Below are positions 21,446 to 63,001 of a stretch of 64,000 bases of DNA, one piece after another; position 1 is the first letter of the stretch; each line of letters begins with the position of its first letter. The DNA comes from an uncultured Bacteroidales bacterium (GTDB lineage: Bacteria; Bacteroidota; Bacteroidia; Bacteroidales; Bacteroidaceae). A model generated the notes under the pieces. The model was not told where the DNA came from. It did no database searches and was given only the letters and a program-made list of their open reading frames with translations. The stretch is taken from assembly GCA_902779085.1 (NCBI GenBank), contig CACYZY010000008.1:46201-110200 (forward strand), written 5' to 3'. Both the position numbers and the translations under genes were made by a program.

Positions 21446-21780
21446 AGTCTACTACGGGAGGACCGCCCGTCTTCCCGTAGTAGAGTGACCGTCCTCCCGT
21501 AGTAGAGCGTTATGCTATCCGTGGTTAATAAATAACCATCTTTGACTGCAGGGCTTCCTACTGGTAACCCCAGTATTTGCTATGGGGTGACTCTAATATC
21601 TTCTATGGGTTGCCACAATGCTTGCTATGGGTTGTCGCAAAGCCTTCTATCACTTGTCGCAATATCTCTTTTACCCCCATAGCAGATACTGCGACGAGTG
21701 ATGGAAGATACTGGAGAAGGCGATGGCAAGCCTTACCCTATGATATAGCAAGCCTTAGTCATAGAGATAGCAGCCGTTAA
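21446..21780. repeat. Degenerate 22-bp tandem/inverted repeat array (copy A)
   Basis: CTAY cores at 21558/21580/21603/21625/21647; inverted ATRG cores at 21679/21701/21723/21745/21767; CTACGGG/CCCGTAG at 21452/21474/21496. Confidence 0.85.
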
Positions 21781-21834
21781 TCATAGGGTTAGGGTACATT
21801 AGTCTATGATTTTCTGTTGCTATGAAAAATATAC

Positions 21835-32201: not shown

Positions 32202-32347
32202 AAGATAGGCTACACCTCAACCAAACAAATAAGCTTATTTGGTTTTGTGCTCGGCTTGCACTATCTTTAGATAAGATAGGCAGCACCTCAACAAAATCAA
32301 ATTAAATACATTTATTTGCTTTTGTGTTCGGCTTGCACTATCTTTGC
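32202..32347. repeat. Tandem pair of ~70-bp palindromic intergenic elements
   Basis: Two copies (32202-32268, 32273-32345) bounded by AAGATAG...CTATCTT and sharing TCGGCTTGCACTATCTTT. Confidence 0.85.
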
Positions 32348-35663: not shown

Positions 35664-37370
35664 TTATTGCTTGTAAGCCTCCAAGTCCTCAGCCTTAAAA
35701 CTGTTGATGAACTTAAAGTGCTTTTCTACCTCAGACTCAACCAAGTTTACATACACCTTAGCTGACTTAGCAAACAGCTCAGGAGCACGAGAAGCATCCA
35801 TCAGCAAGAGATTAGCCATCACATTCACTGCCGCCATCTCATAGAGGCTGCGAGCCAAGATGTCGAGCAACTCTTGATTGCCAGCTTCTTTCACCAGGTT
35901 AGTAGCTGCCTCAAACTTGTTAGTCATCTCGATGATGCGCTCCTGCAAAGGTTTCAGCTCATCAATAACAGCCTCCTGCTCAAACTCACGCAGGATGTCC
36001 AGGTAGGTGCCATTGGTGACGTAGCGAATAGCTGCTACCACCTGCAACTGTGTGGTACCTTCGTAGATGGAGAGGATACGAGCATCGCGATACAGACGCT
36101 GTGCCTTGTACTCCATGATGAAACCAGAACCACCATGAATCTGAATACAGTCATAAGTGTTTTGGTTGGCATACTCAGAGGTCATACCTTTACCCAATGG
36201 AGTGAATGCGTCTGCCAAGCGAGTGTATTTCTTCTGTTCCTGACGCTCTTCAGGTGTCAGTTTGCGCTCACGGCTGATGTCATTCAAAGCCTTATAGATA
36301 TCCACATAGCGAGAGGTCATGTAAAGGATGCTGCGACCTGCATCAAGCTTAGCTTTCATACGAGCCAGCATCTCATATACAGCAGGAAATTCGATGATGG
36401 CCTTGTCGAACTGCTTGCGGTCCTTGGCGTATGCCAAAGCCTCGTTGTAGGCAGCCTGACTCACACCAGTGCTCTGCGCAGCGATACCCAAACGGGCGCC
36501 ATTCATCAAGCTCATCACATATTTGATCAAGCCTAACTTGCGGTCACCACAAAGCTCGGCCTTAGCATTCTTATATACCAGCTCGCAAGTTGGAGAGCCA
36601 TGAATACCCAACTTATGCTCAATGTGACGTACTGTCACGCCGCCCTGACGCTTGTCGTAGATGAACATTGACAAGCCACGACCGTCGCGAGTGCCTTCCT
36701 CAGAGCGAGCCAGTACCAAGTGGATGTCAGAGTCGCCATTGGTGATGAATCGTTTTACACCATTCAGCAACCAGCAACCTTCTTCTTCGCTATAGGTGGC
36801 TTTCAGCATTACACGCTGCAAGTCGGAACCTGCATCTGGCTCTGTCAAGTCCATAGACATGGTCTCACCTTGGCATACGCGAGGGATATATTTCTGACGC
36901 TGCTCCTCAGTACCAAACTCATACAGGGTTTCGATACAATCCTGCAACGACCAGATATTCTGGAAACCAGCATCGGCAGCAGAGATGATCTCTGAAGCCA
37001 TAGAGTAGGGCACGGTAGGGAAATTCAAACCACCATAGCGGCGAGGCATAGGAACACCGTTCAGACCAGCCTTGATGGTGGCAGCCAGATTCTCCTTAGT
37101 CTTCTCAGCATATACCATGCGTCCATCTACCAAATGAGGACCTTCAATATCTACGCTTTCGCTGTTAGGCTCAATCACGTTGGCAGCAATGTCGCCTGCA
37201 ATCTCCAGCACACGGTCGTAGTTGTCTATAGCGTCGTTGTAGTCAACAGGCGCCTCGTCAAACTGATCCTTGTCGGCATAACCACGTTCCTTCAGTTCAA
37301 CGATGCGTTCCATCAGCGGATGGGTAAGATGGAACTTCAGTTCTGGATAGTCACTATAATAATTTGCCAT
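35664..37370 (-). CDS. Acyl-CoA dehydrogenase (long Bacteroidales type)
   Basis: SMDLTEPDAGSD, NGVKRFITNG, KLGIHGSPTCEL, IYEGTTQLQ; 568 aa. Confidence 0.93.
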   Translation of the reverse strand: MANYYSDYPELKFHLTHPLMERIVELKERGYADKDQFDEAPVDYNDAIDNYDRVLEIAGDIAANVIEPNSESVDIEGPHLVDGRMVYAEKTKENLAATIKAGLNGVPMPRRYGGLNFPTVPYSMASEIISAADAGFQNIWSLQDCIETLYEFGTEEQRQKYIPRVCQGETMSMDLTEPDAGSDLQRVMLKATYSEEEGCWLLNGVKRFITNGDSDIHLVLARSEEGTRDGRGLSMFIYDKRQGGVTVRHIEHKLGIHGSPTCELVYKNAKAELCGDRKLGLIKYVMSLMNGARLGIAAQSTGVSQAAYNEALAYAKDRKQFDKAIIEFPAVYEMLARMKAKLDAGRSILYMTSRYVDIYKALNDISRERKLTPEERQEQKKYTRLADAFTPLGKGMTSEYANQNTYDCIQIHGGSGFIMEYKAQRLYRDARILSIYEGTTQLQVVAAIRYVTNGTYLDILREFEQEAVIDELKPLQERIIEMTNKFEAATNLVKEAGNQELLDILARSLYEMAAVNVMANLLLMDASRAPELFAKSAKVYVNLVESEVEKHFKFINSFKAEDLEAYKQ

Positions 37371-61291: not shown

Positions 61292-61588
61292 ATGAAATTT
61301 GTTATTAGGGCTATTGACGGAGAAGGAAAGCTGGAGAAGCGAATGGAGGTGCGCCCTTTTCACTTCGAAGGTATGGATAGGATGAAGGAACATCTTGTTT
61401 GTGCTGGTGGTTTGTTGGATGATGCAGGAAACCTTAAAGGATCTTTGCTAGTAATGGATTTTCAGAACCGTCAGGAATTAGATGAGTATCTCGCTCATGA
61501 GATATACGTGGTAGAACACGTTTGGGAGCAGATTTCCATTGACCAAATGAATGTAGCCTATCTCGACGGGAAGAAGGTAACTCAGTAA
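61292..61588 (+). CDS. YciI family protein
   Basis: RMEVRPFH, GGLLDD...GSLLVMDF, Y...VW motifs. Confidence 0.82.
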   Translation: MKFVIRAIDGEGKLEKRMEVRPFHFEGMDRMKEHLVCAGGLLDDAGNLKGSLLVMDFQNRQELDEYLAHEIYVVEHVWEQISIDQMNVAYLDGKKVTQ

Positions 61589-61642
61589 ACGAGCAAGGTC
61601 AGTATCTAAATTGCCACTTTTTCTTAGTACGAGATAACTGAT

Positions 61643-61910
61643 TCTTTACTACGGGAGGAACGACGTTCTACTACGGGTAGAGCGCTTGTCCTCCCGTAGT
61701 AAGTAAATACCTATCTCTAACCGCAGTATTTCCTATAGGTAACGGCAGTATTGACTATGGGGTATAAGGAGTGCCTCCTATGGGTTGTCGCAGTATCTTC
61801 TACGGGTAGTCGGAAGGCTTCCTTTCTCCCATCTCAGTATCTCCTTTACCCCCATAGCAGATACTACGATGAGTGATAGCAGGTATTGCGGTGTCCCATA
61901 GCAAAGCTTC
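61643..61910. repeat. Degenerate 22-bp tandem/inverted repeat array (copy B)
   Basis: Cores at 61649/61671/61693, 61711/61733/61755/61778/61800/61822/61844, inverted at 61854/61876/61898; 45/53 identity to copy A across the centre. Confidence 0.85.
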
Positions 61911-62062
61911 GGTTTGAAGATAGTTTTGTATTTTTATCTAATGCCACTCCTTTATGGATATAAGACATAAAAATAATTAATAGATAAAACAATTAAGTAA
62001 AAAATTAGTACTTTTGAAACTCAAATTTAACAAGTATACTTTTTATATTGTCATATACAATT

Positions 62063-63001
62063 ATGGATCAAGAACTAAAACCAAAAAATGATCACTCAAA
62101 CGAGGCAATGAAAGCCGATATAATTTGCATTGGTCACATCACGCACGATCGCATTATCACACCTGACCGCGAAGTGCATATGCCAGGAGGAACATCATTC
62201 TACTTTTCTTATGGTTTACGCCACCTTCTGGGGGAGCGTGACGACATTAGTTATCGTCTTATTACCTCTTTGGCCGAAAAGGATATGAAGGCAGTGGATG
62301 ATATGCGCCGTGAAGGCATCGAGGTTGATGTCATCCCTAGTCGTGAGACAGTGTATTTCGAGAACATCTATGGTGCTAACCAGAATAATCGTCGACAGCG
62401 AGTTAGAGCTAAGGCCGACCCTTTCACATGTGAGAAACTGAGAAATGTCAATGCTCGATATATCGTGCTTGGAACCCTTTTAGCCGACGATTTCGATCTC
62501 TCCATCATTCGCTATCTATCAGGACGCGGCACATTAGTAGTGGATGTGCAGGGTTACTTGCGTGAGGTGCGTGGCGATAAGGTATTTGCATGTGAATGGA
62601 AAGACAAACTTGAAGCTCTTCGCTATGTTGATATCTTGAAGGTGAACGAATACGAAATAGAGGTGCTCACGGGAATCTCTGACCAACATCGCGCCTGCGA
62701 AATGTTGGCTCAGTGGGGAGCGCGCGAGGTGTTGCTTACACTTGGCAGTTATGGCTCAGTGGTCTATGTAGATGGTCAGTTCTTTGATATCCCTGCCTGC
62801 GAACCTATTCGATTAGTAGATGCCACTGGATGCGGTGATACGTACGTGATGGCCTATGTACTACGCCGTTGTTTGGGCGATACTCCAGAGCAGGCAGCAC
62901 GCCTTGCGTCGGCTGTAGCTAGTATTAAGCTGGAAGCCTCTGGACCTTTTTTAGGCACAATGGAAGACGCACTTCAGCGACTCAATAATTCACTTCATTA
63001 A
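62063..63001 (+). CDS. PfkB-family carbohydrate kinase
   Basis: MPGGT, DVQG, LKVNEYE, LTLGSYG, DATGCGD; start uncertain (62063 or 62108). Confidence 0.88.
   Translation: MDQELKPKNDHSNEAMKADIICIGHITHDRIITPDREVHMPGGTSFYFSYGLRHLLGERDDISYRLITSLAEKDMKAVDDMRREGIEVDVIPSRETVYFENIYGANQNNRRQRVRAKADPFTCEKLRNVNARYIVLGTLLADDFDLSIIRYLSGRGTLVVDVQGYLREVRGDKVFACEWKDKLEALRYVDILKVNEYEIEVLTGISDQHRACEMLAQWGAREVLLTLGSYGSVVYVDGQFFDIPACEPIRLVDATGCGDTYVMAYVLRRCLGDTPEQAARLASAVASIKLEASGPFLGTMEDALQRLNNSLH

What the first reader, a model, noticed from the sequence alone, without database searches (positions are those of the whole stretch)
61643..61910. Second 22-bp array 40,175 bp away, differing by whole-unit loss and an inverted unit
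Seen: this is a homologue of the 21.4-kb array, with the same 22/23/22/22 core spacing (61733, 61755, 61778, 61800, 61822). The central junction (ATCTC.TTTACCCCCATAGCAGATACT) matches at 45/53 nt at an exact offset of 40175. The differences are quantised. The distance from the 3-unit module to the main array is 62 bp in copy A and 40 bp in copy B, exactly one unit shorter. The right arm has 3 inverted units versus 5. The middle unit of the CTACGGG module is reverse-oriented in A (fwd/rev/rev) and forward in B (fwd/fwd/rev). Context also differs: convergent genes for A, tandem genes for B. Inference: the element disperses and is remodelled unit by unit, which suggests site-specific or template-switch recombination acting on the 22-mer.
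Basis: partly seen in the sequence, partly recalled or inferred. Interest (0 to 1): 0.68.

Follow-up and report, generated by a model that had tools for sequence, protein, structure and literature searches.

The report
Dispersed 22-base palindromic repeat, second copy
This stretch is a second copy of an undescribed non-coding repeat, a long imperfect palindrome built from 22-base units and scattered about 40 times through a rumen Prevotella-type genome; its differences from the first copy are old differences between paralogues (a flipped hairpin module and a shorter arm), not evidence of an enzyme that shuffles single units.

Summary
Copy B (window about 61590-61923) is real and is homologous to copy A (21446-21814). 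At the single offset 40175 the two align without gaps, 186/295 identical against 74±8 for control offsets, and 45/53 at the core. Both belong to a family of about 40 intergenic elements in this 2.6-Mb genome, found in only about nine rumen Prevotella-like species. The design is n forward 22-nt units, CTAT-ACCCCC-ATAG, then m reverse units, often next to a CTACGGG/CCCGTAG hairpin module.

No unit is lost, because degenerate units fill the slot. The "inverted middle unit" is really a four-slot module in the opposite orientation (A = F R R r, B = f F F R).

The family has been mobile. A relative has an empty site for B, and three have none for A. One species carries 91-98% identical copies with 9-bp inverted ends.

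A and B are invariant in 13 and 9 independent assemblies. Orthologues rarely differ: one exact 22-nt indel and one whole-element inversion in 18 pairs. Unit number varies between strains only in an array of identical units.

Slippage and recombination between inverted arms explain this. No recombinase or transposase was found. The core evolves more slowly than synonymous sites. Function is unknown.

The parts
61590..61923 (.). Copy B, the whole inserted block: leader, hairpin module, left arm, core and right arm.
   Evidence: The block is absent from the orthologous YCII-PfkB spacer of RUG12062, which is 158 nt against 474 nt here. It is identical in unit order in 13 independent contigs.
61621..61708 (.). 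Hairpin module of copy B. Four 22-nt slots, f F F R: 61621-61642 degenerate, 61643-61664 F, 61665-61686 F, 61687-61708 R.
   Evidence: Motifs at 61649, 61671 and 61693. Slot table. The reverse complement of A's module aligns best. It forms a 15-bp-plus hairpin in the predicted fold.
61711..61843 (.). Left arm of copy B: six forward units, one of them 23 nt long.
   Evidence: Phase table, motif positions, position-weight-matrix chain.
61844..61857 (.). Core of copy B: CTTT-ACCCCC-ATAG, with the loop at 61848-61853.
   Evidence: This is the best-conserved part of the family. It is 94-95% identical between orthologues.
61858..61923 (.). Right arm of copy B: three reverse units at 61858-61879, 61880-61901 and 61902-61923.
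21446..21533 (.). Hairpin module of copy A. Four slots, F R R r, with the degenerate unit around 21518.
21536..21814 (.). Main array of copy A: left arm 21536-21668, core TTTT-ACCCCC-ATAG 21669-21682, right arm 21683-21814 (5-6 units).
   Evidence: It is 100% identical in 9 independent contigs. Three relatives that keep the ABC/GH92 gene pair lack it.
61292..61588 (+). Upstream gene: YCII-family protein, 98 aa, the last gene of an SSF-transporter / aldose-epimerase / YCII run.
   Evidence: Pfam PF03795.
62009..62016 (+). TACTTTTG, a match to the Bacteroidota -7 promoter motif TAnnTTTG. It lies downstream of the element and 47 nt before the PfkB start codon.
   Evidence: Read directly. It is conserved in the empty-site relative. 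That TAnnTTTG is the Bacteroidota -7 motif comes from my own knowledge.
62063..63001 (+). Downstream gene: PfkB-family sugar kinase, 312 aa.
   Evidence: Pfam PF00294.

Best explanation
Copy B is one member of a family of non-coding interspersed repeats that I could not find described. The family is confined to a small clade of rumen Prevotella-like bacteria.

Each element is a long imperfect palindrome. It has n forward 22-nt units, a conserved core (CTAT-ACCCCC-ATAG), then m reverse units, with n and m between 2 and 8. A separate hairpin module of CTACGGG/CCCGTAG units is often attached.

Shown:
- The elements arrive or leave as whole blocks of about 240-330 bp, at the 3' ends of genes.
- They are then inherited vertically, and the core changes more slowly than synonymous sites.

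A and B are old paralogues, about 63% identical. They differ in three ways: substitutions, the number of units at the outer end of the right arm, and the orientation of the whole four-slot hairpin module.

Inferred:
- Unit number changes by replication slippage or unequal exchange between direct units. The rate depends on how alike the units are.
- Orientation changes by exchange or template switching between the element's own inverted arms.
- No enzyme specific to the 22-mer is needed.
- Least certain: the element serves as a hairpin at transcript ends or as an architectural site between genes. The enzyme that copies it is unknown.
For: Family and design:
- About 30 core-bearing loci and 39 loci matched by A or B in the genome.
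- 53 unit clusters against 6 in a shuffled genome, always with a 36-nt step from the last forward unit to the first reverse unit.
- The 22-nt phase holds without gaps for 3-8 units on each side.

Distribution:
- 68 of 73 pattern matches among 185,579 species genomes fall in nine rumen Prevotella-like genomes.
- No match in viral contigs or phage records, and no Rfam family.

Location:
- All 34 larger arrays are intergenic. 19 lie between convergent genes, against 60 of the 464 other gaps over 150 nt (odds ratio 8.5, p = 2e-8).

Mobility:
- RUG12062 has an empty site for B.
- RGIG3355, RGIG6796 and RGIG9776 have 0-184 nt and no units at the site of A.
- Four RGIG3355 copies are 91-98% identical over 233-250 bp and share their ends, with a 9-bp inverted repeat AATGCCTSC.

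Stability and constraint:
- A and B are invariant across independent assemblies.
- Orthologous arrays have a median identity of 88%, against 70% at third codon positions of the flanking genes. Within 26 nt of the loop the figure is 90-95%.

Remodelling:
- One exact 22-nt indel (L087), and one whole-element inversion at an orthologous site (score 57 inverted vs 4 collinear, with 10 controls collinear).
- The loop points one way in 8 elements and the other way in 4, relative to a fixed terminus.
- A's module is the reverse complement of B's.
- Unit number varies between strains (1, 2, 4, at least 5-6) in the array of identical units at G000 C2:446148.
Against: - No transposase or other copying enzyme was identified.
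- No target-site duplication and no clean filled/empty pair at strain level was found. The direction of the B indel (gain or loss) is unresolved because no outgroup keeps the gene order.
- The function is inferred only from position, folding (z = -5.3 and -4.4 for the two strands) and conservation. No canonical terminator was detected at B.
- Mirrored G/C positions favour the same letter on both arms (294 vs 132). A simple hairpin model does not predict this.
- The strain variation in unit number rests on short-read assemblies, which can collapse or break tandem repeats.
Confidence: 0.7

Rival explanations
1. A dedicated site-specific recombinase (invertase or integrase type) recognises the 22-mer and inverts, deletes or adds single units.
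For: Units are phase-locked at 22 nt. Orientation differences exist between paralogues and at one orthologous site. One indel is exactly 22 nt.
Against: - No orientation or unit-number variants at A or B in 13 and 9 independent assemblies.
- The flips seen involve a whole module, a whole element, or the loop and inner segment. Each is bounded by the element's own inverted repeats.
- Neighbouring genes are ordinary metabolic and transport genes.
- Unit number varies only where units are identical, as expected for slippage.
Confidence: 0.05
2. It is a REP/REPIN-type system, mobilised by a REP-associated tyrosine transposase (RAYT) that reads GTAG-containing hairpins on single-stranded DNA.
For: The elements are extragenic palindromes with CCCGTAG / CCCATAG motifs. 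They occur in clusters of alternating orientation and prefer the 3' ends of genes.
Against: - PF01797 is absent from the window's genome and from 6 of the 9 other element-bearing genomes. That includes RGIG3355, which has the youngest copies.
- No units lie beside the Y1 transposase genes of G034.
- GTAG sits inside the stem rather than as an unpaired tag, unlike the GTAG REPs of PMC3733652.
- These genomes are incomplete assemblies from metagenomes, so absence is not proof.
Confidence: 0.07
3. It is a family of structured non-coding RNA genes or 3'-UTR RNA elements. The long hairpin with C-rich loops would be the functional form.
For: Both strands fold far better than shuffled sequence (z = -5.3 and -4.4). 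The core is under constraint. The 22-nt unit equals two turns of an A-form helix (my own knowledge).
Against: - Loop orientation is not tied to gene direction: three each way at tandem-gene loci.
- Wobble pairs are not enriched on the strand that carries the ACCCCC loop (609 vs 685).
- Mirrored G/C positions avoid pairing.
- The stem near the loop of the A/B subfamily carries two conserved mismatches.
- No Rfam match.
Confidence: 0.12
4. It is an array of DNA sites for an architectural or topology protein. Sites two helical turns apart lie on one face of the helix, and they sit where convergent transcription meets.
For: The 22-bp phase is strict. The elements are enriched between convergent genes. 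The sequence, not the pairing, is conserved, and same-strand ACCC/GGGT motifs occur on both arms.
Against: No candidate protein was found. Unit sequences vary widely outside a 9-14-nt part. The outer units are no better conserved than the flanks.
Confidence: 0.15

Closest known systems
BrickBuilt MITE / minisatellite of Porphyromonas gingivalis (Klein et al. 2015, PMC4596501)
   Same: Same order (Bacteroidales). Non-coding, always intergenic, about 20-40 copies per genome. Built of 22-23-nt spacer-less units whose number differs between copies. Narrow host range.
   Different: [quoted passage not shown]
- Here the units form two inverted arms around a conserved loop.
- No such ends occur at A or B.
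- The young subfamily ends in AATGCCTSC.
REP / BIME / REPIN elements of Proteobacteria
   Same: Extragenic palindromes combined in mosaics of alternating orientation. Preference for 3' ends and convergent gene pairs. Vertical persistence of individual copies.
   Different: - REPs are single 20-40-nt hairpins with an unpaired GTAG or CGTC tag and, for GTAG REPs, a cognate RAYT (PMC3733652).
- Here there are phase-locked 22-nt units.
- GTAG lies inside the stem.
- No RAYT is present in most carrier genomes.
BOX elements of Streptococcus pneumoniae (from my own knowledge)
   Same: Modular interspersed repeat with a variable number of internal units (boxA, n copies of boxB, boxC) that folds into a long stable hairpin.
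   Different: Different phylum and sequence, 45-nt units, and no mirror-image arms around a fixed loop.
Other 22-bp-unit repeat families noted by this scan in other rumen Prevotella genomes (AI notes e1-4434943 and e1-4013653, unchecked)
   Same: 22-bp units, intergenic, dispersed. One is described as a giant palindrome that gains and loses units between strains.
   Different: They share no short words with copy B, so they are not the same sequence family. I did not examine them.

Membership tests
BrickBuilt (P. gingivalis MITE) | Tandem direct 23-nt repeats without inverted arms | tested here: not met
   Units are 22 nt and form a forward arm and a reverse arm around a loop.
BrickBuilt (P. 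gingivalis MITE) | Leader and tail segments ending in IS5-type inverted repeats GAGACCTTTGCA / TGCAAAGGTCTC | tested here: not met
   The only match in the window (1 mismatch) is at 35944, far from A and B, and is within chance expectation.
BrickBuilt (P. gingivalis MITE) | Always intergenic, tens of copies per genome | tested here: met
   34 of 34 larger arrays are intergenic. There are about 40 copies.
REP / REPIN-RAYT | Cognate single-copy Y1 (RAYT) transposase, usually flanked by the repeats | tested here: not met
   PF01797 is absent from G000 and from 6 of 9 other carrier genomes. No units lie beside the G034 genes. The genomes are incomplete.
REP / REPIN-RAYT | Short hairpin with an unpaired GTAG or CGTC tag at one end | tested here: not met
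   In the hairpin module CTACTACGGGAGGAC / GTCCTCCCGTAGTAG, the GTAG is inside the stem. Definition taken from PMC3733652.
REP / REPIN-RAYT | Extragenic, mostly downstream of genes | tested here: met
   19 of 34 arrays lie between convergent genes, odds ratio 8.5, p = 2e-8.
MITE (non-autonomous DNA transposon) | Terminal inverted repeats | tested here: inconclusive
   The young RGIG3355 copies end in AATGCCTSC ... GSAGGCATT. A and B show no such ends.
MITE (non-autonomous DNA transposon) | Target-site duplication | tested here: inconclusive
   None is visible at the four young copies or at the empty site of B. The flanks are too diverged to fix the junctions.
MITE (non-autonomous DNA transposon) | Presence/absence at orthologous sites | tested here: met
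   B is absent in RUG12062. A is absent in RGIG3355, RGIG6796 and RGIG9776.
MITE (non-autonomous DNA transposon) | A related autonomous element with the same ends | not tested
   Only the Y1 family was searched. Insertion sequences are often missing from genomes assembled from metagenomes.
Site-specific inversion system (shufflon / invertase type) | Orientation isomers coexisting within a population | tested here: not met
   B has one arrangement in 13 contigs and A in 9. These are consensus assemblies, so rare isomers would be missed.
Site-specific inversion system (shufflon / invertase type) | Recombinase gene next to the invertible DNA | tested here: not met
   The neighbours of B are SSF, aldose epimerase, YCII, PfkB and MFS. 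The neighbours of A are GH92, ABC ATPase, DUF5687 and M16 peptidase.
Rfam RNA families | Match to a curated covariance model | tested here: not met
   Only two tRNAs reach the gathering threshold in the window. The best matches on copy B are chance-level microRNA and snoRNA models.

The most novel reading that the evidence does not exclude
The elements are not just selfish DNA. They would be a domesticated, selected cis-element: a scaffold with a strict two-helical-turn (22-nt) register, carrying same-strand ACCC/GGGT motifs that are deliberately non-complementary between the arms. A still-unknown protein would read it at the ends of convergent genes. The recurring 22-23-nt unit size across Bacteroidales repeats (BrickBuilt, and other Prevotella families noted by this scan) would then reflect one shared, undescribed machinery for propagation or binding.
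Probability: 0.15. Interest if true: 0.75.

Novelty: new variant of a known kind. Interest (0 to 1): 0.42.

Why it matters
Interspersed palindromic repeats are well studied in Proteobacteria and hardly at all in Bacteroidota, the dominant gut and rumen phylum. This family has four useful properties:
- a very regular 22-nt architecture;
- clear presence/absence between sister species;
- a recently active subfamily with defined ends;
- a core that evolves more slowly than synonymous sites.

That makes it a tractable case for asking what copies such elements when no RAYT is present, and whether they do something for the host at convergent gene ends.

In practice these arrays break short-read assemblies, as contigs ending inside them show. 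The arrays of identical units could serve as strain markers. For the finding as handed over, the main result is corrective: the "quantised" A/B differences are not evidence for an enzyme that acts on single units.

Tried and rejected
I used independently assembled contigs instead.
- Rfam at gathering and permissive thresholds: nothing.
- Phage and viral collections: no match.
- RAYT/Y1 transposase: absent from most carriers and not flanked by units.
- BrickBuilt ends: absent. The RGIG3355-type end pattern is also absent from the window.
- Sigma-70 promoter and intrinsic-terminator scan around B: nothing. The scan does not model Bacteroidota promoters.
- Empty/filled comparisons at six other loci (L051, L060, L065/L076, L085, L109): the G000 gaps hold unrelated sequence or other small repeats, so no junctions or target-site duplications could be read.
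- Clusters near C1:465-469 kb as a possible autonomous parent: two of the three were weak matrix hits inside open reading frames.
- Polarity of the B indel: no outgroup keeps the YCII-PfkB gene order.
- RNA-type covariation: mirrored positions show no strand-specific wobble excess, and the G/C positions avoid pairing.
- Literature: nothing on such repeats in Prevotella.

Full report
**What is there.** The window is contig C8:46201-110200 of a 2.6-Mb, 39-contig genome assembled from a metagenome, about 90% complete.
- In B, CTATAGG/CTATGGG/CTACGGG motifs lie at 61733, 61755, 61778 and 61800, with a degenerate one at 61822. CCCATAG lies at 61851 and 61895.
- CTACGGG lies at 61649 and 61671, and CCCGTAG at 61693.
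- Copy A has the same layout, shifted by exactly 40175 bases.
- At that single offset 186 of 295 positions are identical. About 600 control offsets give 74±7.6, maximum 94. The core window is 45/53 identical.
- Repeat finders report the 22-nt period in both copies.

**Correcting two of the "quantised" differences.** The gapless alignment at offset 40175 runs straight through the stretch between the CTACGGG module and the main array (28/40 and 31/44 identical; MAFFT places no gap there). So B is not one unit shorter.
- B has a degenerate first unit (GTACGAG at 61627).
- Each module fills four 22-nt slots: A = F R R r and B = f F F R.
- The reverse complement of A's module matches B better than A's module does directly (local score 63 vs 43; best gapless 56/90 vs 46-48/90).
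- The difference is therefore a flip of the module. Equivalently, the inner pair of units is flipped between the outer pair, which are inverted repeats of each other. It is not one unit turned round.
- Four other composite copies (at C1:180743, C1:355983, C5:149482 and C6:56310) read F F (F) R next to the main array, like B. A is the odd one.
- The right arm does differ by whole units: three in B (61858-61923), five to six in A. The array ends at 61923, not 61910.

**The family.**
- BLAST of A and B against the genome finds 39 loci. Thirty carry the central palindrome GCAGTATCTCCTAT-ACCCCC-ATAGGAGATACTGC.
- Laid out in 22-nt steps from the loop, all 30 stay in phase without gaps for three to eight units on each side. 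One shared 23-nt unit occurs in the A/B subfamily.
- A position-weight matrix of the unit finds 53 clusters of at least three units, against 6 in a shuffled genome. The switch from forward to reverse units always spans 36 nt.
- The CTACGGG module is a second, related kind of array. It also occurs alone, for example as six tandem units at C2:446148.
- About twelve arrays share one terminus, aaaGGAGGCATTT-CTACGGGT. Relative to it the loop reads GGGGGT in eight and ACCCCC in four, so the loop and inner segment have flipped repeatedly.

**Where it sits.**
- All 34 larger arrays are intergenic.
- 19 lie between convergent genes, 10 between tandem genes and 5 between divergent genes. Genome-wide, gaps over 150 nt split 79/277/142. 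After removing the array-bearing gaps, the odds ratio for convergent pairs is 8.5 (p = 2e-8).
- Loop orientation does not follow gene direction.
- B lies after the stop of a YCII-family gene, the last of an SSF / aldose-epimerase / YCII run. It lies before an AT-rich stretch holding TACTTTTG (62009-62016), a match to the Bacteroidota -7 promoter motif TAnnTTTG (motif identity from my own knowledge), 47 nt upstream of the PfkB start.
- That stretch is conserved in a relative that lacks the element. The PfkB promoter is therefore not supplied by the element.

**Distribution.**
- An exact-pattern scan of one genome for each of 185,579 species gave 73 matches. 68 fall in nine rumen Prevotella-like genomes: RGIG3355, RUG12062, RGIG9776, RUG828, RGIG4876, RGIG6796, RUI513, RGIG9675 and Prevotella sp. 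tf2-5. Five singletons elsewhere are what chance would give.
- Nothing was found in viral contigs or phage records, or in Rfam.
- I found no description in the literature.

**Is it being remodelled?** I tested this in three ways.
1. *Population.* Contigs encoding exactly the flanking proteins come from many independent rumen assemblies.
   - Copy B has the same length and unit order in 13 of them. There are a few single-base differences, one TGT-to-CAC cluster (L039) and one strain with a diverged left part (L035).
   - Copy A is 100% identical in 9.
   - This also rules out an assembly chimera.
2. *Orthologues in sister species* (18 pairs).
   - Most show no indel inside the array.
   - One shows a clean 22-nt, one-unit difference (L087 vs C2:415245).
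   - At one site (G000 C10:9136 vs RUG12062 and RGIG6796) the whole element is inverted relative to its flanks: score 57 inverted vs 4 collinear, while ten control pairs are collinear. It lies next to a two-gene indel.
3. *The array of identical tandem units at C2:446148.* The number of perfect units differs between assemblies (1, 2, 4, at least 5-6), and five short contigs break inside it.

Unit gain and loss is therefore real, but it tracks the identity between neighbouring units, as slippage or unequal exchange does. Flips are bounded by the element's own inverted repeats. Neither needs an enzyme aimed at the 22-mer, and no recombinase gene is near A or B.

**Is it mobile?**
- RUG12062 has a PfkB that is 90% identical and a YCII-PfkB spacer of 158 nt, against 474 nt here. 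The whole block from about 61590 to about 61900-61923 is missing, and the promoter-proximal part aligns. The block comprises leader, module and main array.
- At the site of A, three relatives that keep the convergent ABC/GH92 pair have 0, 35 and 184 nt between the stop codons and no units. RUG828 has the outer units of A.
- In this genome the paralogues are old. The nearest paralogue has a median identity of 0.77, and 20 of 27 cores are closest to a copy in another genome.
- In RGIG3355 the nearest-paralogue median is 0.90 with a maximum of 0.99. Four copies, 91-98% identical over 233-250 bp, share exact ends with a 9-bp inverted repeat (AATGCCTSC). They show no unit-number differences among them.
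- The element therefore spreads as a whole block.
- I could not read a target-site duplication, and I found no copying enzyme. Y1/RAYT transposases are absent from most carriers, including RGIG3355.

**Constraint and structure.**
- Orthologous arrays are 88% identical (median). Third codon positions of the flanking genes are 70% identical and first plus second positions 96%. Identity is 94-95% at the loop and the four bases on either side, about 90% out to 26 nt, and about 80% in the outer units.
- Both strands of B fold far better than shuffled sequence (z = -5.3 and -4.4).
- The pairing pattern is not that of a selected RNA hairpin. Wobble pairs are not enriched on the loop-ACCCCC strand (609 vs 685).
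- At the G/C positions 5, 20, 22, 27, 42 and 44 from the loop, the two arms carry the same letter far more often than complementary letters (294 vs 132, p = 3e-15).
- The arms are thus kept non-complementary once per unit. This may protect against the instability of long perfect palindromes, or it may mark a strand-specific motif. It remains unexplained.

**Verdict.** Two of the four "quantised" differences, however, are artefacts of how units were counted. The evidence points to ordinary repeat dynamics in an old and mostly quiescent MITE/BIME-like family, not to a recombination system acting on the 22-mer.

The family itself appears undescribed. Its closest analogue is BrickBuilt of P. gingivalis, but it fails that family's defining features. 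An earlier AI note on copy A (e1-5245641) reached the same general reading. Other notes describe further 22-bp-unit families in other rumen Prevotella genomes; these were not checked here.

Noticed in passing
G000 C2:446148-446270 (L124:2148-2270), outside the window: Six tandem 22-nt units CCTCCCGTAGTAGAACGGTGTT, four of them perfect, lie 109 nt upstream of a short-chain dehydrogenase gene. The number of perfect units differs between independent assemblies (1, 2, 4, at least 5-6), and five short contigs end inside the array.
   Followed up: yes
G000 C10:9136-9281 (L125:1137-1282) vs L115 and L069: At this orthologous site the whole element is inverted relative to its flanks in this genome. 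It lies directly next to a two-gene insertion or deletion (AMMECR1-Memo fusion plus a radical SAM protein) between priA and a 7TM-HD gene.
   Followed up: partly
L035:2501-2700 (Logan SRR35205877), orthologue of window 61561-61750: In one strain the left 190 nt of the copy B region (module plus first units) is only about 84% identical to the window. The rest of the spacer is 100% identical and the flanking genes about 95%. This mosaic suggests exchange with a breakpoint inside the array.
   Followed up: partly
L039, orthologue of window 61892-61894: A cluster of three adjacent substitutions (TGT to CAC) in the second right-arm unit makes it resemble paralogous units at C10:38716 and C1:424390. 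This looks like a templated change or gene conversion.
   Followed up: partly
G000 C6:73663-73740; G000 C2:43121-43447; L132:2367-2660 (RGIG9675): The same kinds of gap hold other, unrelated small repeats: three copies of GTTTAGTACTAGTAAAC; GTTGTAAGG-type repeats; and a 73-nt tandem repeat in which each unit carries a G+C-rich hairpin.
   Followed up: no
window 32202-32345: A 77-nt tandem duplication, 1.9 copies and 83% matching, reported by Tandem Repeats Finder. Another note of this scan already covers it (groES leader).
   Followed up: no
L077:4722-4990, L101:626-863, L054:6396-6633, L071:1589-1838 (RGIG3355): A young subfamily, 91-98% identical, has a 37-nt leader that can form a small hairpin (GGAAAGGA / TCCTTTCC) and ends in AATGCCTSC ... 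GSAGGCATT. These are the best material for finding the copying mechanism.
   Followed up: partly
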